DNA of 32,000 nucleotides, taken from Haloimpatiens sp. FM7330 (GTDB taxonomy: Bacteria > Bacillota > Clostridia > Clostridiales > Clostridiaceae). Under the pieces are notes generated by a model. The model saw only the letters and a program-made list of their open reading frames with translations, did no database searches and was not told where the DNA came from. The position numbers and the translations under genes are program-made. Positions within the stretch are counted from its first letter, which is position 1. Each line of letters starts with the position of its first letter. The stretch spans positions 3,729,278 through 3,761,277 of the forward strand of contig NZ_JBHWAB010000001.1 of NCBI RefSeq assembly GCF_042688525.2, given 5' to 3'. Of the stretch, positions 10,551-31,986 are shown one piece after another.

Positions 10551-12500
10551 CTATCTAACTTGACTTCCAGTCGGCAATTCTTGTGGTATTGTAGCAGTAA
10601 ATAGCTTACTATCATCATCAGTTGATGCCGCAAGAATCATACCTTGAGAAAGTTCTCCTCTTAACTTAACAGGTTTTAAGTTAGCAACTAAAATCACGTA
10701 TTTTCCAATTAGCTCTTCAGGTTTATAATATTTAGCTATTCCTGATACTACTTGCCTTACTTCTCCACCTAAATCTACTTTTAATTTTAAAAGTTTATTA
10801 GCTTTTTTAACAGGTTCACATTCTAAAACTTTAACAACTCTTAAATCTACTTTATCAAAATCATCTATAGTAATCTCTGATTTTAAAGGCTTCATTTTTG
10901 GCTGATTAGCTTTTTCAATCTCTTTAAGTTGTTTTTGTCTAATTTCTTCAAGCTGTGCTAATTTCTTTTCTACATCTATTCTAGGGAATAAGTTATCTCC
11001 CTTTTGTACTTTTGAACCAGCTCTTGTTCCATCAAAAGAAGCTAAAGAATCCCAAGATATAAGTTCTACATTTAATTTTTCATTTATCTTATCACTTGTT
11101 GTAGGTAAGAATGATGCTAATAATACTGATATAAATCTTATAGCTTCAGATAAATTATAAAGTACTGTTGCTAATCTATCTTTCTTATCTTCATCTTTAG
11201 CAAGTGCCCAAGGCATTGTTTCATCAATATATTTATTAGATCTCTTTATAAGTGTCCAAATATGCTCTAGAGCTTCTGGTAATTGGTACTTATTAACTGA
11301 TTCTTCAACTTTTTTTGGAATTTGAAGTGCTAATTTAATTAACTCATCGTCAATTTCTTCTTTAGCCTTTGGTGCCGGCATAATTCCATCAAAATATTTT
11401 TGAACCATTGCCACAGTTCTTGAAACAAGATTTCCAAGATCATTTGCAAGATCTGAATTTGTTTTCTTTATAAACATTTCATTTGTAAACACACCATCTG
11501 ATCCAAATGGTATTTCATGTAGTAAATAATATCTAACTGCATCTACACCAAATTCATTAACAAGAATTTCAGGATCAACCACATTACCTTTTGACTTTGA
11601 CATTTTTCCTCCATCAACTAAAAGCCATCCGTGACCAAATACTTGTTTTGGAAGAGGAAGTTCTAAAGCCATAAGCATAATTGGCCAATAAATAGTATGG
11701 AATCTTATAATATCTTTACCAACTAGATGGACATCTGCTGGCCAATATTTTTCCATTAACTTTTCTTGTTCATTATTATATCCCAAAGCTGATATATAGT
11801 TACTTAATGCATCTATCCAAACATATACAACATGTCCTTTGTCAAATTCTACTGGAATTCCCCAATCGAATGAAGTTCTTGATACACAAAGATCTTGAAG
11901 TCCTGGTCTTAAGAAATTATTAATCATCTCATTTTTTCTTGATTCTGGTTGAATAAATTCTGGATGATTTTCAATATATTCTATAAGCTTATCTGCATAT
12001 TTTGACATTTTGAAAAAATAAGCTTCTTCTTTAGCTTTTTCAACTGGTCTTCCACAGTCTGGACATTTACCATCTACAAGTTGAGTTTCAGTCCAAAACG
12101 ACTCACATGGAGTACAATACCAGCCTTCATAACTTCCCTTATAAATATCTCCTTGATCATACAATTTTTTAAATATCTTTTTAACTGTATCAATATGGTA
12201 ATCATCAGTTGTTCTTATATATTTATCATAACTTATGTCCATTACTTCCCATAAATGTTTTATAGTAGCCACTATTTCGTCAACATATTCTTTTGGTGAA
12301 ACACCTTTTTCTTCAGCTATTCTTTGAATTTTTTGACCATGTTCATCTGAGCCTGTTAAAAACATTACGTCATAACCTGTTAATCTCTTAAATCTTGCAA
12401 CCGCATCTGCTGCTACTGTAGTATACGTATTACCTATGTGTAATTTTGCTGATGGATAATAAATAGGTGTAGTTATATAAAATGTCTTTTTATCTGCCAT
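10551..12500 (-). CDS. metG: methionine--tRNA ligase with C-terminal tRNA-binding (EMAP/Trbp111-like) domain
   Basis: The class I motifs are AKLHIGN and KMSKS. The zinc knuckle is CTPCESF...CPDCG. The C-terminal tail reads VDLRVVKV...VANLKP.KLRG..S.GMIL. Confidence 0.97.
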   Translation of the reverse strand: MADKKTFYITTPIYYPSAKLHIGNTYTTVAADAVARFKRLTGYDVMFLTGSDEHGQKIQRIAEEKGVSPKEYVDEIVATIKHLWEVMDISYDKYIRTTDDYHIDTVKKIFKKLYDQGDIYKGSYEGWYCTPCESFWTETQLVDGKCPDCGRPVEKAKEEAYFFKMSKYADKLIEYIENHPEFIQPESRKNEMINNFLRPGLQDLCVSRTSFDWGIPVEFDKGHVVYVWIDALSNYISALGYNNEQEKLMEKYWPADVHLVGKDIIRFHTIYWPIMLMALELPLPKQVFGHGWLLVDGGKMSKSKGNVVDPEILVNEFGVDAVRYYLLHEIPFGSDGVFTNEMFIKKTNSDLANDLGNLVSRTVAMVQKYFDGIMPAPKAKEEIDDELIKLALQIPKKVEESVNKYQLPEALEHIWTLIKRSNKYIDETMPWALAKDEDKKDRLATVLYNLSEAIRFISVLLASFLPTTSDKINEKLNVELISWDSLASFDGTRAGSKVQKGDNLFPRIDVEKKLAQLEEIRQKQLKEIEKANQPKMKPLKSEITIDDFDKVDLRVVKVLECEPVKKANKLLKLKVDLGGEVRQVVSGIAKYYKPEELIGKYVILVANLKPVKLRGELSQGMILAASTDDDSKLFTATIPQELPTGSQVR

Positions 12501-12681: not shown

Positions 12682-12945
12682 AAAAAAACCTCTACATAGA
12701 ACTTAATTCTACATAGAGGCGCTATTATGCACTGTACCACTCTAATTTATTACTATTTCACAATAGTAATCTCTCTAGGTAACTATCATTACCTTGCAAT
12801 ATAACGGTTGCAGCCGTATTATCCTACTTAAATTTCAGATAATATGTTTAGGGGCCATGTTCATGAATTTCAATATTGCTGACTCTCACCTTACTCAGCT
12901 CTCTTTAAATATATCCCTTCACTACTCTTCCCATCATTACATTTA
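12682..12945 (-). promoter_or_regulatory. T-box riboswitch leader, Met (AUG) specifier, with intrinsic terminator
   Basis: All elements are on the minus strand. Stem I carries AGAGAG...GGUGAGAG. The specifier is GAAAUUC-AUG-A (AUG = 12864..12862). AGUAGGA and the F-box CCGUUA are present. The T-box sequence is AAAUUAGAGUGGUACAGUG (12748..12731). The terminator is CCUCUAUGUAG-AAUUAAGU-UCUAUGUAGAGG plus U7 (12719..12682). Confidence 0.9.
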
Positions 12946-13034
12946 AGAATATAAATATCACACTATTCCTATAATAATATATTTATCAAATCAATATATT
13001 ATTATACATAAATACATAACAAATTATTGAATCC

Positions 13035-18093: not shown

Positions 18094-19761
18094 TTAACAT
18101 TCTATACTTGAGAAAATCTTTTCTCCTTTTATTGCAATAATTTTATATAAAATTATTGTAATGCCTCCAAATACTAATAAAATGAAAGCAATTGTCTTTA
18201 TTAATCCTAAATCAAAGTAAAGAACACCGGCTATTAAACCTGCTATACTTACCCATGATATAATCATTTGAAAAAATGGATTTATGTTTTGTTTTACAGC
18301 TTTTTGTTCATTTTCCCATTTTAATTTTGGATGATTCAAATCTACAAATACACCTATCATTGATATAAAAGTTATAGCTAAAACTCCTAGTATTGCAATT
18401 ATTATACTTGTTACCACTGGCATTTTTAAAACAATTATTGCTACAATAAGCATAATTATTTCTGACATTATGCCCATTACTATACTTGATAAAACTTTTG
18501 CCATTATTTGTGTTCTATATGATATCGGTAAGAACTTACATATAAATATATCTTTTCCTTCTCTTGATATAGATGTAGCAGCTATTGCATTGGCTCCTCC
18601 AACAAATAACATAAATGCAAAACTCGCTGCAATTACTATTCCTTGATAAGATGTATTATTTAAAAAGGAACTTATCTTTGATAATGTCAATCCTCTATTT
18701 GAATTTGCCATCATAGGTATAATAAAAAATACAGGCCATAAAAAATTCATTATAACGCAATTATAAAAATATGTTGGTGTTCTAAATAATAGTCTAAGTT
18801 CTTTCTTAGTATAAGAAATTAATACTGACTGTTTAATAGAAGTTTTTTCTAATTCTTCAGAACTTAGTTTTTTTCTTTTTGATGAAGTTTCAGAAACACC
18901 TAATACTCCCTTAAAATATAGTTTTTCACTTATTATTAAAAATAATCCCAATACTGCAAAAGTAATACCTAAAAACATTAAAATATTTGTAATCCCTAGT
19001 GCACTACTATTATTAACTACTCCTAAAGCTGCCAATTTAGCAGTTGGGAATATAGTAGTAACTATACTTATAAAAGAGTTATTTCCTATATTAATCATTG
19101 AATTTACTTGTTCAGGCGTAATAGAACTTGAACTTAATTTTTGTATATAGAAATTAAAACCTAAAGCAAGTGCTAAACCTACTAGTCCACTAATTTTTCT
19201 AAATCTATCTTTATTTCTTGCAAAACCTGTAAATCCCATTATTAACATTACTATTAAAGATGATAATACTAAAGGAATTATTGGTATAGTAACAAAAACA
19301 ATTATGCTATATAAATAATATAGTAAACCTCCTCCACTTTTTAATCCATATGAAATTACAAGTGGAACAAAAAATACTGCTTCTGTTAAATATTCATATA
19401 TTAAAACAGTAGTAAGTTTTGCAGATATAATATGCCATGATTTAAAAGGAAGTGGCAATATATTTTCTATGTCCATTGAAAAATACAATGTATTCATAGC
19501 ATAAAATATTCCGAAAACAAATATAATAAGGCAATTAAGTGCAAAACCAATTCCTAATATTATGCCTTCTTGATTAAATTTTGATAAAATATCATAAAGT
19601 GCTGATGCGCCTTTTCCAATCATCATTATTAAAGGTAATAATGCTATTGCTAAAATAGCATATAATACTATTTTTTTACTGAAAATTTTACTTTTATTTT
19701 GTGATCGAGTTTCATCTCCTGATTTCAAGAAGATTTTTGTTAAAATCCACCATTTATTCAT
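18094..19761 (-). CDS. putative ABC exporter permease (large multi-TM, ABC-2/'putative ABC exporter' type)
   Basis: 555 aa with >=10 TM segments. It overlaps the upstream ATPase gene by 8 nt, implying translational coupling. Confidence 0.7.
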   Translation of the reverse strand: MNKWWILTKIFLKSGDETRSQNKSKIFSKKIVLYAILAIALLPLIMMIGKGASALYDILSKFNQEGIILGIGFALNCLIIFVFGIFYAMNTLYFSMDIENILPLPFKSWHIISAKLTTVLIYEYLTEAVFFVPLVISYGLKSGGGLLYYLYSIIVFVTIPIIPLVLSSLIVMLIMGFTGFARNKDRFRKISGLVGLALALGFNFYIQKLSSSSITPEQVNSMINIGNNSFISIVTTIFPTAKLAALGVVNNSSALGITNILMFLGITFAVLGLFLIISEKLYFKGVLGVSETSSKRKKLSSEELEKTSIKQSVLISYTKKELRLLFRTPTYFYNCVIMNFLWPVFFIIPMMANSNRGLTLSKISSFLNNTSYQGIVIAASFAFMLFVGGANAIAATSISREGKDIFICKFLPISYRTQIMAKVLSSIVMGIMSEIIMLIVAIIVLKMPVVTSIIIAILGVLAITFISMIGVFVDLNHPKLKWENEQKAVKQNINPFFQMIISWVSIAGLIAGVLYFDLGLIKTIAFILLVFGGITIILYKIIAIKGEKIFSSIEC

Positions 19762-20479
19762 TTTCAGTCATCTCCAAGAACATTTTTTCAAGTGATTCAC
19801 TGTTTTTAAAGTGTTCTCTCATTTCACTTAATGTACCACAAAATAGTATTTTACCTTTATTTATTATAGCAACTCTATCACATATTTTTTCTGCAACTTC
19901 AAGCACATGAGTTGAAAAAAGTACTGTATTTCCTGAATCAGCATGTTCTCTCATCATTTCTTTTAATATGTAAGAAGATTTTGGATCAAGTCCTGTCATA
20001 GGTTCATCAAGTATCCAAACCTCAGGATCATGTATTAAAACACCCATTATAATAATTTTTTGTCTCATTCCATGTGAATAGCTTTGAATTTGATCATCAA
20101 GTGCATTAATCATACCAAATCTTTCCGCTAGATTTTTTATTCTTTCCTTTCTTACATTTGCTGGCACATCATAAATATCTGCCATAAAATTAAGATATTC
20201 TATTCCCTTTAATCTTAAAAACATATCTGGACTATCTGGTACAAAACCAAATTCCATTTTAGCTTTCAATGGTTCTTTTTGAATATCAGTATTATTTATT
20301 TTGATTTCACCTTTAGTAGCAGCAATTATTCCCGTAATCATTTTTATTGTAGTAGTCTTACCAGCTCCATTTGGTCCTAAAAACCCAAATATTTCACCAT
20401 CCTTTACATTTAAATTCAAATCATCTACTGCATAAGTAGAACCATTATAGGTTTTTGATACATTTTTTAACTCAATCAT
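19754..20479 (-). CDS. ABC transporter ATP-binding protein
   Basis: Walker A GPNGAGKTT, signature YSHGMRQK, Walker B WILDEP. The start is set at ATG 20479 after GGAGGTATAAGT, not at the track start 20497. Confidence 0.92.
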   Translation of the reverse strand: MIELKNVSKTYNGSTYAVDDLNLNVKDGEIFGFLGPNGAGKTTTIKMITGIIAATKGEIKINNTDIQKEPLKAKMEFGFVPDSPDMFLRLKGIEYLNFMADIYDVPANVRKERIKNLAERFGMINALDDQIQSYSHGMRQKIIIMGVLIHDPEVWILDEPMTGLDPKSSYILKEMMREHADSGNTVLFSTHVLEVAEKICDRVAIINKGKILFCGTLSEMREHFKNSESLEKMFLEMTENE

Positions 20480-20841
20480 ACTTATACCTCCGTTCATTCT
20501 ATATTTTATATCTATTTAATAATAAAATACCACTCATCTAACTGTAATACAATTGAATTTTTTTCAGTCAACCTAACAATAACCTTAACTCCTAAAAAAC
20601 TCTGATATACTCTCTTTTCTAAAAAAACATCTTAATATCCTCCTTAAAAACAATATATTTTTAATCATTTTAAATTTTTACTTTCGTTTATTATAGGCTA
20701 TATCATATTCTTTTATATAATTTATATTTATATTTATTAAGTTGTTCATAATCTTTTAAGGTAAGTTTGTTAAACTTTATATATAGTATAATATACTATA
20801 TATAAATATTCAAGTATTTTTTTTATTTTGTTTACATTTTA

Positions 20842-21360
20842 TTAAAACATAAATTTCGCTAAAGTCACAGCCATTATGATAGCTGTTAAATCCGCAAATA
20901 TTGCTGCCCATAAAGTATGTCTTATATTCTTAATTTTAACCGCTCCATAATAAACAGTTAATGTATAAAATATAGTTTCTGTAGACCCCATTACTATAGA
21001 AGCAACCTTACCAATATAACTATCTGCACCATACTTATTCAATGTATCAGCAAAAATACCAAGTGCCCCACTACCTGATAAAGGTTTTACCATTACTAAT
21101 GGCACAACCTCTGGAGGAAGTCCTATAAATTTTACAATTGGCTTTATTAAACATATAAAATAGTCTAGCAGTTTGGATTGTCTAAATACTGCTACCGCTA
21201 TTAACATAGCTAATAAATATGGAAATATTTTTACACATATAGAAATTCCATCTTTTGCACCATCTACAAAACACTCATAAACTTTCACTCCATTTTTCAT
21301 CCCATATATAACTATCAATCCTATCAGTATAGGAATTATAGATTTAATAATATAACTCAT
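20842..21360 (-). CDS. spmB: spore maturation protein B (nucleoside-recognition/Gate domain membrane protein)
   Basis: 172-aa polytopic protein immediately downstream of spmA. The size and pairing are typical of spmA-spmB. Confidence 0.8.
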   Translation of the reverse strand: MSYIIKSIIPILIGLIVIYGMKNGVKVYECFVDGAKDGISICVKIFPYLLAMLIAVAVFRQSKLLDYFICLIKPIVKFIGLPPEVVPLVMVKPLSGSGALGIFADTLNKYGADSYIGKVASIVMGSTETIFYTLTVYYGAVKIKNIRHTLWAAIFADLTAIIMAVTLAKFMF

Positions 21361-21387
21361 AAAAACCCCCTATTTATAAATCACTAC

Positions 21388-21963
21388 TTAAAAATGTTTT
21401 TGAAGTATTTTACAAATTATTATTCCAACTAATGCTGATGTTCCTGTTGTAAGTATTGCTGGAATAATAATAGCCCCTGGATTTTGTGAATTACAAGCTG
21501 CTCTTATAGATATAACAGATGTAGGGACAAATTGAATACACGCCGCATTTAACACTAAAAATAGAGCCATATCATTACTTGCAGTATCTTTTTTTGTATT
21601 TAATCTTTGCATTTCTTCCATGGCCTTAATTCCAAATGGTGTAGCTGCATTTGAAAGTCCCATCATATTTGCAGTTAAATTCATAATTATAGCTCCCATA
21701 GCTTTCTTGTCCTTCCCCGCCTTCGTAAATAATTTTTCTAATACAGGTCTTAAAATCTTACCAAGCTTTTCTGTAAGTCCACTTTCCTGCGCAATCCTCA
21801 TGACCCCACACCAGAGACACATCATTCCTACTAAATTAATCATTAATTTAACTGTAGATGCTGTACTATCTACTATTGATTTTGATATTACTTCACCACT
21901 TCCTGTTATTAGTCCAAAAATTATACTACTTACGAGTATTAGAAACCATATAATATTAATCAT
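21388..21963 (-). CDS. spmA: spore maturation protein A
   Basis: MINIIWFLILV... N-terminus. 191-aa Gate-domain membrane protein paired with spmB. Confidence 0.8.
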   Translation of the reverse strand: MINIIWFLILVSSIIFGLITGSGEVISKSIVDSTASTVKLMINLVGMMCLWCGVMRIAQESGLTEKLGKILRPVLEKLFTKAGKDKKAMGAIIMNLTANMMGLSNAATPFGIKAMEEMQRLNTKKDTASNDMALFLVLNAACIQFVPTSVISIRAACNSQNPGAIIIPAILTTGTSALVGIIICKILQKHF

Positions 21964-22183: not shown

Positions 22184-22360
22184 ATGAATAGTTCAAGAGC
22201 TAAACAAATATTAAATTCTAAAAAAAATATTTCTGTTTATTATAAAAATACCCCTGTTTGGATTGATGAAATATATGATAATGGAACTGTTAGTGTTAAA
22301 AATTTAAATACAGATAAAAATATAGTTGTTTCTGTAAAAACATTAAATGAACTTTCCTAA
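22184..22360 (+). CDS. sspH: H-type small acid-soluble spore protein (58 aa)
   Basis: Not in the ORF track (too short). TAGGAGGATATTATAA precedes the ATG. My translation MNSSRAKQILNSKKNISVYYKNTPVWIDEIYDNGTVSVKNLNTDKNIVVSVKTLNELS fits the SspH pattern (RAK.I..S...V.Y.G.P.WI...). Confidence 0.75.
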   Translation: MNSSRAKQILNSKKNISVYYKNTPVWIDEIYDNGTVSVKNLNTDKNIVVSVKTLNELS

Positions 22361-30309: not shown

Positions 30310-30346
30310 TGTTCTTGAACTTATTTAAATGACTGGAGGATTTGAA

Positions 30347-30589
30347 ATGACATTAAGAGACATAATGAAATACATAGAAAGTGAATATAACATAATTAAT
30401 TCAACTCCTTGTGAAATCTGTGGAGGAAGCTTCTTAGCTGAATCAATAAAAGTAAATATTATAAATTCTTTACCTTATGATATTTGTGAATGTATATGTG
30501 ATACTTGTGGACATAAAAAAACATTTAAATTTTCATCACCTTTCATAAATGAAGAAAACTTAAATGAATTTAAAAATAGTATGAATTAG
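30347..30589 (+). CDS. hypothetical small Cys-rich (zinc-ribbon-like) protein, 80 aa
   Basis: CEICGG...CECICDTCGH pattern. The start is set at the second ATG (30347), 7 nt after TGGAGGA. The track start 30329 overlaps that SD. Confidence 0.55.
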   Translation: MTLRDIMKYIESEYNIINSTPCEICGGSFLAESIKVNIINSLPYDICECICDTCGHKKTFKFSSPFINEENLNEFKNSMN

Positions 30590-30602: not shown

Positions 30603-31016
30603 CTATTCTATTCCCATATCTTTAAAAATCTTCTCTATTTCTTTAGAATTTAATAATCCTTCTGACTTTTTATATACACTACCATCTTTATTTAAAAATA
30701 CTAATGTAGGTATAAGTGATACATCATATTTTTCTGCATATTCTGGATTTTCTTCTAAATTAACTATTGTTATCTTTACTTTATCATCATATTTTTTTCT
30801 TACATCCTGTAAGATATATTTCATTTTAACACATGCTGGTCATGTATCTGTACCTAATTCTAGCAATTGAGGCATACCTGCACTTTTTGTATGCGTTTGT
30901 TGTTGATTTTCAATTGTATTAGAATCTTTTTTTGTATAAATATTTTTTTTGTAATAAAATCCTACTACTCCTAAAATTAATACACAAATTACTATATATT
31001 TAATAATTTTTTTCAT
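30603..31016 (-). CDS. membrane-anchored thioredoxin-like protein with in-frame TGA (30842..30840) at the first position of the CxxC motif; candidate selenoprotein (UPAC), or alternatively a nonsense pseudogene
   Basis: ATG 31016 follows GGAGGA. My translation runs MKKIIKYIVICVLILGVVGFYYKKNIYTKKDSNTIENQQQTHTKSAGMPQLLELGTDT-[TGA]-PACVKMKYILQDVRKKY...VSLIPTLVFLNKDG... The track reports only the part after the TGA (30603..30824). Confidence 0.65.
30798..30814 (-). promoter_or_regulatory. candidate bacterial SECIS hairpin
   Basis: UCUUAC-AGGAU-GUAAGA starts 25 nt 3' of the UGA. The apical loop contains GG. A possible lower stem (AUAU/UAUG) forms across an A-rich bulge. Confidence 0.4.
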
Positions 31017-31050
31017 ATAATCCTCCTTATACCCTGTGTAGGTATATAAA

Positions 31051-31079
31051 ATTTTATATCATATATTTATTATTGTCAA
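31051..31079 (-). promoter_or_regulatory. candidate promoter for the thioredoxin-like gene
   Basis: Minus strand TTGACA (31079..31074), 17 nt, TAAAAT (31056..31051). Confidence 0.5.
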
Positions 31080-31087
31080 ATATAATA

Positions 31088-31122
31088 TAAAAAAGCTTAT
31101 GAATTACAAATTCACAAACTTT
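31088..31122 (-). terminator. rho-independent terminator after the 178-aa membrane protein gene
   Basis: Minus strand AAAGUUUGUGAAUU-UGU-AAUUCAUAAGCUUU (two G-U pairs) followed by UUUUAUAUUAU. Confidence 0.6.
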
Positions 31123-31133
31123 TTTTATTATAA

Positions 31134-31670
31134 TTATCTTTTCTCTTTTTTATATAATATATATATACCTGCTACTATAAATAGTACTGGTACAAAATAT
31201 TGGCTTATAGATGATTTAATCATATAATATATATCATTACCCTCAAATACCTTATTGATAACAGCTAATCCACCTAAGATTATAAATATCCATCCTATTA
31301 TTTGTAAATCTCTCTTGTTATTCAACTTATTAAAAGTATGTGTATAATTATCATCATTATTTAAATTATCATTTTGTGTTTTAGTATGTTGAAAACCATT
31401 ATATCTCCTAAAAAACAATTCACAATCATTTATATTTTCTCCTCTATCTATTTTGTGTGCAATATTAAAAGTATCAAAAAAAGTATATAACCATAATGCA
31501 AATTTAAATATTCCTGCTAATGCACCTAATCCTATTAAACTAAACAATGGTCCTATTAGTAAAAATATTAAAAGTGCTTGAATTCCCATATTTAGTAAGC
31601 CTAAATACATATATCCTACTCCCGGGATTAAAGCAGCTAAAAAAGTTAAAAAACCACTTCTTCTTTCCAT
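31134..31670 (-). CDS. hypothetical integral membrane protein (178 aa)
   Basis: Several TM segments (FLTFLAALIPGVGYMYLGLL, ALLIFLLIGPLFSLIGLGALAGI, IIGWIFIILGGLAVI, FVPVLFIVAGIYILY). The RBS GGAGAG lies inside the end of the upstream gene. Confidence 0.6.
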   Translation of the reverse strand: MERRSGFLTFLAALIPGVGYMYLGLLNMGIQALLIFLLIGPLFSLIGLGALAGIFKFALWLYTFFDTFNIAHKIDRGENINDCELFFRRYNGFQHTKTQNDNLNNDDNYTHTFNKLNNKRDLQIIGWIFIILGGLAVINKVFEGNDIYYMIKSSISQYFVPVLFIVAGIYILYKKEKR

Positions 31671-31674
31671 TGTA

Positions 31675-31986
31675 TCACTCTCCTAAAAAAAATTTAAAAA
31701 AATTAAAAGTATCATTGTGATTTTGTTCAATCATAGAAATACTTGTTTTTATTTTCATCTTGGCATTTATTATATTGTACTGTAAACTAGACGTATATAT
31801 AATCAACATCAAAAAACCAGATAACATTAAACTTAATGCTGCTATACGATATCTTTCTCTATTTGAATTTTTTTGGGGTAAATTGTTTATTTTATTCATT
31901 AATCGTATATCATAACCTTTATCTGTTTCTATATCTTCAAAAGAATCTTTTATAATTTTATCTAAATAATCAAATTTTTCTTGCAC
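31675..31986 (-). CDS. hypothetical single-pass membrane protein (possible anti-sigma factor-like)
   Basis: GTG start. A cytoplasmic N-terminus precedes one TM (IAALSLMLSGFLMLIIY). The upstream partner lies outside the window, so the role is a guess. Confidence 0.4.
   Translation of the reverse strand: MQEKFDYLDKIIKDSFEDIETDKGYDIRLMNKINNLPQKNSNRERYRIAALSLMLSGFLMLIIYTSSLQYNIINAKMKIKTSISMIEQNHNDTFNFFKFFLGE

What the first reader, a model, noticed from the sequence alone, without database searches (positions are those of the whole stretch)
30603..31016. In-frame TGA at the first Cys of a thioredoxin CxxC motif: candidate UxxC selenoprotein missed by ORF calling
The track ORF 30603..30824 is only the back half of a thioredoxin fold (cis-Pro region VSLIPTLVF) and has no redox motif. 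The same frame stays open upstream for 58 codons, back to an ATG at 31016 that has a GGAGGA RBS. Those codons encode a signal anchor and linker ending ...MPQLLELGTDT. A TGA follows at 30842..30840, then PACVKM. The stop therefore sits exactly where thioredoxin-like proteins carry the nucleophilic Cys (x-C-x-x-C). A hairpin UCUUAC-AGGAU-GUAAGA (30814..30798) lies 25 nt downstream with G residues in its apical loop, as expected for a bacterial SECIS. The unit has its own promoter-like TTGACA-17-TAAAAT, and the upstream gene ends in a terminator. Selenoproteome surveys have reported thioredoxin/DsbA-like UxxC selenoproteins in Clostridia, so the class is known. This locus would still be mis-annotated as a short fragment or a pseudogene.
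Basis: partly seen in the sequence, partly recalled or inferred. Interest (0 to 1): 0.8.

Follow-up and report, generated by a model that had tools for sequence, protein, structure and literature searches.

The report
Split thioredoxin gene is a selenoprotein
Two small neighbouring genes in Haloimpatiens myeolchijeotgali are most likely one gene for a membrane-anchored thioredoxin-like enzyme whose catalytic cysteine is replaced by selenocysteine (encoded by TGA); this is a known kind of protein that annotation pipelines still cut in two.

Summary
On the minus strand, ATG 31016 to TAG 30603 is one frame of 137 codons, interrupted only by TGA 30842..30840. The read-through product is a thioredoxin-fold protein, and the TGA sits at the first Cys of CxxC. 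The window comes from Haloimpatiens myeolchijeotgali FM7330. GenBank splits the gene into a 58-aa "hypothetical protein" and a 73-aa "thioredoxin family protein".

Seven distinct, distant orthologues (about 34-44% identity) carry TGA at the same column, with intact in-frame N-terminal halves. All seven have a stem-loop with GG in the loop just downstream; in six it is a 7-8 bp stem with a GGN triloop. Four of five Cys homologues have none.

The window lacks that hairpin at the family position. It has a hairpin of the same shape (7 bp plus GGA loop, 30814..30798) 15 nt further downstream. That hairpin uses rare codons, and only 0.09% of synonymous recodings reproduce it.

Best reading (confidence about 0.8): a genuine UxxC selenoprotein, probably extracytoplasmic, from a family usually paired with CcdA. 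It is a new, apparently uncurated member of a known kind.

Main gap: the genome's Sec machinery (selA/B/C/D) could not be checked here.

The parts
31051..31079 (-). Promoter-like TTGACA-17 nt-TAAAAT
   Evidence: 11 of 12 consensus matches. This is a consensus match only; function is not shown.
31021..31026 (-). Shine-Dalgarno GGAGGA, 4 nt before the ATG
   Evidence: Read directly from the sequence. All orthologues also have a purine-rich RBS before their N-terminal ATG or GTG.
30603..31016 (-). Complete coding sequence of the 137-aa thioredoxin-like (seleno)protein, including in-frame TGA (codon 59) and TAG stop
   Evidence: GenBank splits it into MFD3158510.1 (58 aa) and MFD3158509.1 (73 aa).
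30951..31007 (-). N-terminal hydrophobic signal anchor (residues 4-22, IIKYIVICVLILGVVGFYY)
   Evidence: Kyte-Doolittle 19-residue mean of 2.29. It is conserved in the full-length Sec and Cys homologues that were aligned. The L014 orthologue has a lipoprotein-like N-terminus.
30840..30842 (-). UGA, proposed Sec codon (U59)
   Evidence: It aligns with the first Cys of CxxC. TGA is at the same column in 7 distinct orthologues.
30831..30842 (-). Redox motif U-P-A-C (TGA CCA GCA TGT)
30798..30814 (-). Candidate SECIS hairpin UCUUACA-GGA-UGUAAGA (loop 30807..30805)
   Evidence: It has 7 Watson-Crick pairs and a GGA loop that starts 32 nt after the UGA. It uses the rare codons AUC and CAG. It has the same shape as the family hairpin but lies 15 nt further 3', and it is not conserved in the orthologues.
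30708..30710 (-). Codon of the thioredoxin cis-Pro (P103, in SLIPTLVF)
   Evidence: Invariant P in alignment A1. It aligns with the IPT motif of thioredoxins.
31081..31132 (-). Intrinsic terminator of the upstream 178-aa gene
   Evidence: -18.9 kcal/mol, z=-6.75, followed by a U-run. This makes the thioredoxin gene a separate transcription unit (inference).
31134..31986 (-). Context: 103-aa and 178-aa membrane-protein genes upstream
   Evidence: They are 41% and 45% identical to the two genes that precede the TGA-thioredoxin gene in L014, where they follow an ECF sigma factor gene.

Best explanation
Window positions 31016..30603 (minus strand) are one gene for a 137-residue thioredoxin-fold thiol-disulfide oxidoreductase held in the membrane by an N-terminal signal anchor. 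Its attacking active-site residue is selenocysteine (U59-P-A-C62).

Proposed mechanism:
- The UGA at 30842..30840 is recoded by SelB with Sec-tRNA(Sec).
- SelB is recruited by a stem-loop inside the coding sequence (30814..30798; 7 bp, GGA loop, 32 nt after the UGA).
- The catalytic domain most likely faces the outside of the membrane and reduces disulfides or oxidised thiols in envelope proteins.
- In most relatives the electrons come through an adjacent CcdA (DsbD-type membrane protein). In Haloimpatiens the partner is not adjacent.

What is shown: the frame structure, the fold, TGA at the Cys column, conservation of the TGA in seven orthologues, hairpins that go with TGA but not TGT, and codon bias that builds the window's hairpin.

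What is inferred: actual Sec insertion, that the shifted hairpin is the working SECIS, the topology, the reductase direction and the CcdA dependence.
For: 1. Fold and site. Pfam Thioredoxin spans the TGA. The closest solved structure, 2l57_A (E=1.9e-16), and classical thioredoxins place CxxC and the cis-Pro at U59/C62 and P103.
2. Sec/Cys pairs. Among relatives fetched, 223 have Cys at the column. Eleven have 'W' (TGA read as Trp by a table-4 gene model). About 21 are truncated exactly at the Met after the motif.
3. DNA of seven distinct orthologues (L004, L006, L007 = Clostridium omnivorum, L010, L012, L013, L014) shows TGA at the same column. Each has an in-frame N-terminal signal-anchor half and an RBS.
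4. All seven have a stem-loop at the same place just after the UGA. Six have NACAGAU-GGN-NUCUGUN with the loop 17 nt after the UGA. L004 has a variant with one A-G mismatch (5-bp stem, 7-nt loop). The outer pair is UA, GC, CG or GU. Four of five Cys homologues have no such hairpin; the fifth has only a weak 5-bp one.
5. The window's own hairpin meets the loop, stem and spacing criteria of the bacterial SECIS model quoted in PMC13188914. Its stability (-4.6 kcal/mol) equals that of orthologue core hairpins (-4.8 to -8.0). It depends on the rare codons AUC (20 of 913 Ile) and CAG (32 of 187 Gln). It arises in 0.09% of synonymous recodings.
6. The 73-aa ORF has no RBS of its own.
7. The genetic code is standard. 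Window genes stop with TAA 24, TAG 5 and TGA 1, and Trp is TGG 83 times.
8. Extracytoplasmic role. There is a strong N-terminal hydrophobic segment and a lipoprotein-like N-terminus in L014. ccdA (DsbD_TM) lies directly downstream in 5 of 7 Sec orthologues and in both close Cys homologues examined. There is a weak similarity to the DsbD C-terminal domain.
Against: - No selA, selB, selD or tRNA-Sec gene lies in the 32-kb window, and the rest of the genome could not be searched.
- The family's conserved hairpin is absent from the window. The substitute hairpin is lineage-specific, with no relative available to test its conservation.
- The 60-70 nt after the UGA fold at only -6.4 kcal/mol, above the -7.5 kcal/mol cut-off of the published model.
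- No ccdA lies in the window.
- The genome is a Nanopore-only assembly, so a base error at the third codon position is not excluded.
- Rfam has no match, though it is not known to hold a fitting model.
Confidence: 0.8

Rival explanations
1. The gene is a relic. It descends from a Sec-containing ancestor, but Haloimpatiens has lost Sec decoding, or the gene has lost its working SECIS. Translation then stops at the UGA and the locus is a young pseudogene.
For: The hairpin conserved in all seven orthologues is missing at its usual place in the window. The Sec machinery was not seen. Loss of selenoproteins is documented as frequent in Clostridia (PMC1794560). ccdA, the usual neighbour, is absent.
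Against: Both halves are intact, although about 10% of random codons here are stops. The RBS, promoter and family motifs are kept. A hairpin of the same shape lies within the allowed spacing, and it is built from rare codons that only 0.09% of recodings reproduce. That is hard to explain without selection for it.
Confidence: 0.1
2. The TGA is a recent nonsense mutation or an assembly error. A TGT or TGC Cys codon was changed to TGA in this strain, or was miscalled in the Nanopore-only assembly.
For: TGT or TGC to TGA is a single third-position change. The genome was assembled from MinION reads with Flye alone. The motif xPACVKMK is shared with Cys forms L001-L003.
Against: Four of five Cys forms examined have no SECIS-like hairpin; L018 has only a weak 5-bp one. 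The window has a highly non-random one. The syntenic orthologue L014 also has TGA. Coverage is reported as 114x.
Confidence: 0.06
3. The UGA is decoded without selenium. Either it is read through by near-cognate Trp- or Cys-tRNA, or the two ORFs are separate small genes (a 58-aa membrane peptide plus a 73-aa truncated thioredoxin).
For: GenBank annotates two CDSs. Several automated gene calls translate the TGA as Trp.
Against: The 73-aa ORF has no RBS and lacks the redox motif. Trp at the nucleophile position would kill catalysis. The 'W' calls are table-4 artefacts on short contigs. The code is standard in the window. The hairpins that go with the TGA have no role under this view.
Confidence: 0.04

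Closest known systems
Sec-containing thioredoxin (Trx, PF00085, UxxC), listed as experimentally verified in PMC13188914 Table 1
   Same: Thioredoxin fold, with Sec replacing the N-terminal (attacking) Cys of CxxC, an in-frame UGA with a downstream SECIS in the coding sequence, and many Cys-form homologues.
   Different: Judging by its NCBIfam matches, classical Trx is a roughly 100-residue protein without an N-terminal extension. This protein has a signal anchor and a linker, a T-U-P-A-C motif, and in relatives a ccdA partner. NCBIfam thioredoxin models score far below their cut-offs (49 bits against 96.8).
'Thiol:disulfide interchange protein' selenoprotein family (PF13098, UxxC), predicted with high confidence in PMC13188914 Table 1 and reported from Deltaproteobacteria in PMC1794560
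   Same: A UxxC thioredoxin-like protein that also matches PF13098 (E=1.6e-8).
   Different: The reference sequence (WP_011366075.1) could not be fetched, so direct relatedness is untested. The organisms named for that family in the PMC1794560 table rows I read are Geobacter species, whereas this family was found in Clostridia-type contigs.
CcdA/DsbD-dependent extracytoplasmic thioredoxins (ResA, StoA, the DsbD C-terminal domain)
   Same: A membrane-anchored thioredoxin domain next to a DsbD_TM/CcdA gene in most relatives. There are weak matches to ResA, StoA and the DsbD C-terminal region.
   Different: All those matches are far below the curated cut-offs. The active site has Sec instead of Cys. 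In the window no ccdA is adjacent.
PDB 2l57_A, 'Uncharacterized protein' (126 aa, TDTCPYC)
   Same: The closest solved relative (E=1.9e-16 over residues 32-136). It belongs to the same family as P0200 and has the same motif context, T-D-T-C-P-x-C.
   Different: It is a Cys form, and the depositors assigned no function.

Membership tests
Bacterial selenoprotein gene (Sec-UGA plus bSECIS) | In-frame UGA aligned with a catalytic Cys of homologues (Sec/Cys pair) | tested here: met
Bacterial selenoprotein gene (Sec-UGA plus bSECIS) | UGA conserved in orthologues, with coding sequence conserved on both sides | tested here: met
   Seven distinct orthologues, about 34-44% identical.
Bacterial selenoprotein gene (Sec-UGA plus bSECIS) | bSECIS model: apical loop of 3-9 nt, upper stem of 4-16 bp, G in the first two loop positions, 16-37 nt between UGA and loop (PMC13188914 Fig. 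2) | tested here: met
   Loop GGA, 7 bp, 32 nt.
Bacterial selenoprotein gene (Sec-UGA plus bSECIS) | bSECIS model: minimum free energy of -7.5 kcal/mol or lower | tested here: inconclusive
   The hairpin alone is -4.6, and the 60-70 nt after the UGA are -6.4 kcal/mol. Orthologue core hairpins are no stronger (-4.8 to -8.0). The region used by the published program is not known to me.
Bacterial selenoprotein gene (Sec-UGA plus bSECIS) | SECIS conserved or covarying among relatives | tested here: inconclusive
   The family hairpin is conserved, with one pair showing compensatory changes. The window's shifted hairpin is not shared by any orthologue, and no close relative was available.
Bacterial selenoprotein gene (Sec-UGA plus bSECIS) | Genome encodes selA, selB, selC (tRNA-Sec) and selD | not testable with these tools
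   None are in the window. The genome is not in the contig index.
Bacterial selenoprotein gene (Sec-UGA plus bSECIS) | Selenium incorporated into the protein | not testable with these tools
   This needs an experiment.
Thioredoxin fold (PF00085) | Profile match above the curated cut-off, with the CxxC position and the cis-Pro present | tested here: met
   45.4 bits against 23.5. U59/C62 and P103 align.
CcdA-coupled extracytoplasmic thioredoxin (ResA/StoA/DsbD-gamma type) | N-terminal export or anchor signal | tested here: met
   Hydrophobic residues 4-22, conserved in homologues. This is a sequence inference only; the topology has not been shown.
CcdA-coupled extracytoplasmic thioredoxin (ResA/StoA/DsbD-gamma type) | Adjacent ccdA/DsbD_TM gene | tested here: not met
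   tblastn with four CcdA queries found nothing in the window. The feature is met in 5 of 7 Sec orthologues and 2 of 2 close Cys homologues.
CcdA-coupled extracytoplasmic thioredoxin (ResA/StoA/DsbD-gamma type) | Match to the curated ResA, StoA or DsbD models above cut-off | tested here: not met
   26, 25 and 15 bits against cut-offs of 170, 210 and 330. So it works like these proteins but is not a member of those named families.

The most novel reading that the evidence does not exclude
This would be one member of a so far uncurated family of exported, membrane-anchored Sec-thioredoxins in Clostridia. Most members are paired with CcdA, which makes the pair look like a split DsbD whose thioredoxin module carries selenocysteine. 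Within this single family the SECIS would have moved 15 nt (loop 17 nt versus 32 nt after the UGA). That would show that clostridial SelB tolerates a wide UGA-to-loop spacing and that SECIS elements can turn over while Sec is kept.
Probability: 0.5. Interest if true: 0.5.

Novelty: new member of a known kind. Interest (0 to 1): 0.4.

Why it matters
- It corrects a RefSeq/GenBank annotation. Two CDSs (MFD3158510.1 and MFD3158509.1) should be one selenoprotein. The same error is present in Clostridium omnivorum (WP_264852114.1 plus WP_264852113.1) and in many metagenome gene calls.
- No NCBIfam model reaches its cut-off for this family, so the annotation pipeline has nothing to trigger Sec-aware calling. 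A dedicated model would fix a whole family.
- Biologically, it adds a Sec-using thiol-disulfide reductase that probably acts outside the cytoplasmic membrane of strict anaerobes.
- It also offers a natural pair of SECIS positions for testing spacing rules.
- None of this changes what is known in principle about selenoproteins.

Tried and rejected
- The first word-indexed homologue search with the read-through protein found only one distant Cys form and missed even the identical fragment.
- Exact contig look-ups for three window proteins found nothing, so the source genome could not be walked.
The 78-aa C-terminal part was used instead.
- The metagenome scan with TGACCNGCNTGYGTNAARATGAAR gave two out-of-frame chance hits.
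- Rfam at E up to 10 found nothing around the TGA.
- The species paper has no mention of selenium, and no supplements are held.
- A neighbour-joining tree of the C-terminal domains was unresolved (support 6-14% around the window), so it says nothing about one or several Cys/Sec switches.
- A non-standard code (TGA = Trp) was considered and rejected.
- The last homologue search was left unused. A SelD, SelA or SelB query from a distant species would list only its own relatives among the 120 rows shown, so it could not reveal the Haloimpatiens genes.

Full report
**What is in the sequence**

On the minus strand an ATG at 31016 follows a GGAGGA box. It opens a frame of 58 sense codons, then a TGA at 30842..30840, then 78 further sense codons ending at TAG 30605..30603. 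The ORF lister reports the two halves separately, as 30840..31016 (58 aa) and 30603..30824 (73 aa, starting at an internal Met).

The window has 27% G+C, and about one random codon in ten is a stop. Open stretches of 58 and 78 codons are therefore individually improbable, at about 0.003 and 0.0003. The 73-aa ORF has no Shine-Dalgarno sequence of its own.

The gene upstream ends in a strong hairpin followed by a U-run (-18.9 kcal/mol, z=-6.75). The pattern scanner had skipped this terminator because the stem has few G-C pairs.

**The protein**

With Cys placed at the TGA, the 137-residue product matches Pfam Thioredoxin (E=8.7e-12, above the gathering score) across residues 46-131, so the domain spans the stop. 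The best solved relative is 2l57_A (E=1.9e-16, residues 32-136), which carries TDTCPYC where the window has TDT-TGA-PAC. Classical thioredoxins align their WCGPC and their cis-proline with U59/C62 and P103.

Residues 4-22 are strongly hydrophobic, so the protein has a signal anchor followed by a linker. No NCBIfam model reaches its cut-off.

**Source and current annotation**

Exact-sequence look-up identifies the window as Haloimpatiens sp. FM7330, the type strain of H. myeolchijeotgali. GenBank annotates the two halves as separate CDSs: MFD3158510.1, a 58-aa hypothetical protein, and MFD3158509.1, a 73-aa thioredoxin family protein. The genome is a Nanopore-only Flye assembly with 114x coverage, accession JBHWAB000000000.

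**Relatives**

An exhaustive phmmer search with the 78 residues after the TGA found 1245 relatives. Among the sequences fetched:
- 223 have Cys at the critical column;
- 11 have Trp there;
- about 21 are 71-82-aa fragments that begin at the Met just after the motif.

I fetched DNA for seven distinct representatives: L004, L006, L007 (Clostridium omnivorum, split in RefSeq in the same way), L010, L012, L013 and L014. Each one has TGA at exactly this column, an in-frame N-terminal signal-anchor half and an RBS. The 'W' forms are therefore gene-caller artefacts.

The genetic code in the window is standard. The 30 genes end in TAA 24 times, TAG 5 times and TGA once, and Trp is TGG 83 times.

**The RNA element**

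All seven orthologues have a stem-loop at the same place just after the UGA. In six it is NACAGAU-GGN-NUCUGUN, starting 10-11 nt after the UGA with the loop 17 nt after it. L004 has a variant with one A-G mismatch, giving a 5-bp stem and a 7-nt loop that my loop rule did not pick up. The outermost pair occurs as U-A, G-C, C-G and G-U, and 91% of cells are paired against 28-55% for slid controls. Of five Cys-form homologues examined, four have no hairpin of this kind and one has only a weak 5-bp stem with a G-U pair.

The window is the exception. Its codons at that place (K-M-K-Y-I instead of Q-M-V/E-S-V) cannot pair. However, 15 nt further on lies UCUUACA-GGA-UGUAAGA (30814..30798), with the same 7-bp stem and GGN triloop.
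- Its loop starts 32 nt after the UGA. This is inside the 16-37 nt range of the published bacterial SECIS model, which also asks for a 3-9 nt loop, a 4-16 bp stem and a G in the first two loop positions (PMC13188914).
- Its stability (-4.6 kcal/mol) equals that of the orthologues' core hairpins. The whole downstream 60-70 nt folds at only -6.4 kcal/mol, short of the model's -7.5.
- It is very unlikely to be accidental. Only 17 comparable hairpins exist in 64 kb of both strands, so 0.006 are expected in the permitted zone.
- It uses AUC, which accounts for 20 of 913 Ile codons, and CAG, which accounts for 32 of 187 Gln codons and is the only CAG among the gene's five Gln codons.
- Only 19 of 20000 synonymous recodings drawn from the window's codon usage produce such a hairpin.
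- It is not shared by any orthologue, and I could not obtain a close relative to test its conservation.

**Genomic context**

In five of the seven Sec orthologues, and in both close Cys homologues examined, the gene is followed directly, often with overlap, by a DsbD_TM/CcdA gene. The thioredoxin part weakly resembles the C-terminal domain of DsbD, and the neighbour resembles its membrane domain. This points to an extracytoplasmic reductase fed with electrons through CcdA.

The window has no ccdA. Its two upstream genes (103 and 178 aa) correspond to the two genes that precede the TGA-thioredoxin gene in L014 (41% and 45% identity). In L014 those genes follow an ECF sigma factor gene, and the thioredoxin has a lipoprotein-like N-terminus. 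The window's Gate-Gate-ABC genes are 63-74% identical to genes downstream of the L010 copy. The locus therefore looks orthologous to loci that carry TGA. That argues against a recent nonsense mutation in a Cys gene.

**What remains open**

The window holds no tRNA and no sel gene. The species description does not mention selenium.

So Sec insertion is inferred from comparative evidence only. A relic gene (about 0.10), a nonsense mutation or base-calling error (about 0.06) and selenium-independent decoding or two separate genes (about 0.04) remain as rivals.

**Comparison with what is known**

Sec-containing thioredoxins and 'thiol:disulfide interchange' proteins with UxxC are established selenoprotein families (PMC13188914 Table 1; PMC1794560). 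The kind is therefore known.

This particular family is membrane-anchored, usually linked to ccdA, and carries a T-U-P-x-C motif. It has no curated NCBIfam model. I found no paper linking CcdA with a thioredoxin-like selenoprotein, which fits the split annotations seen.

I class it as a new member of a known kind, of moderate interest. The displaced SECIS is its one unusual feature.

Noticed in passing
window 12712..12946 (-): A T-box leader (Rfam RF00230, 113.6 bits) lies upstream of the methionyl-tRNA synthetase gene at 10551..12500 (-).
   Followed up: partly
window 22184..22360 (+): A 58-aa ORF in an otherwise empty 880-nt gap matches the small acid-soluble spore protein H family (PF08141, E=6e-19).
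   Followed up: partly
window 31134..31986 (-); L014 3184..4561: The 103-aa and 178-aa genes upstream of the finding are homologous (41% and 45%) to two genes that follow an ECF sigma factor gene in L014. The sigma gene, if present here, lies just beyond the window end. The 178-aa protein has a faint LiaF-TM match (E=0.018).
   Followed up: partly
window 19757..21963 (-); L010 17650..19879: The Gate-Gate-ABC transporter genes are 63-74% identical to genes about 7.5 kb downstream of the TGA-thioredoxin gene in L010. This partial synteny suggests a fairly close relative.
   Followed up: partly
window 30329..30589 (+): A Cys-rich 86-aa ORF (CxxC...CxC..CxxC) converges on the thioredoxin gene, with 13 nt between the two stops. 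It has no family match, and the exact sequence is absent from the protein collection.
   Followed up: no
L004, L005, L012, L013 and proteins P0009, P0010, P0020, P0105, P0165, P0174: Automated gene calls on short Logan contigs translate the Sec-TGA as Trp (a table-4 model). The resulting full-length 'W' proteins are a handy flag for missed selenoproteins.
   Followed up: yes
L012 528..1214 and homologues; proteins: The thioredoxin-like protein weakly matches the DsbD C-terminal domain, and its neighbour CcdA matches the DsbD membrane domain, so the pair resembles a split DsbD. Both also weakly hit the selenoprotein TsoB model, far below its cut-off.
   Followed up: partly
window 30835..30849 (-): The minimum-energy fold also predicts a second small hairpin (AUACAUGA-CCAG-CAUGUGU region) that includes the UGA itself in its stem. 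Its significance is unknown.
   Followed up: no
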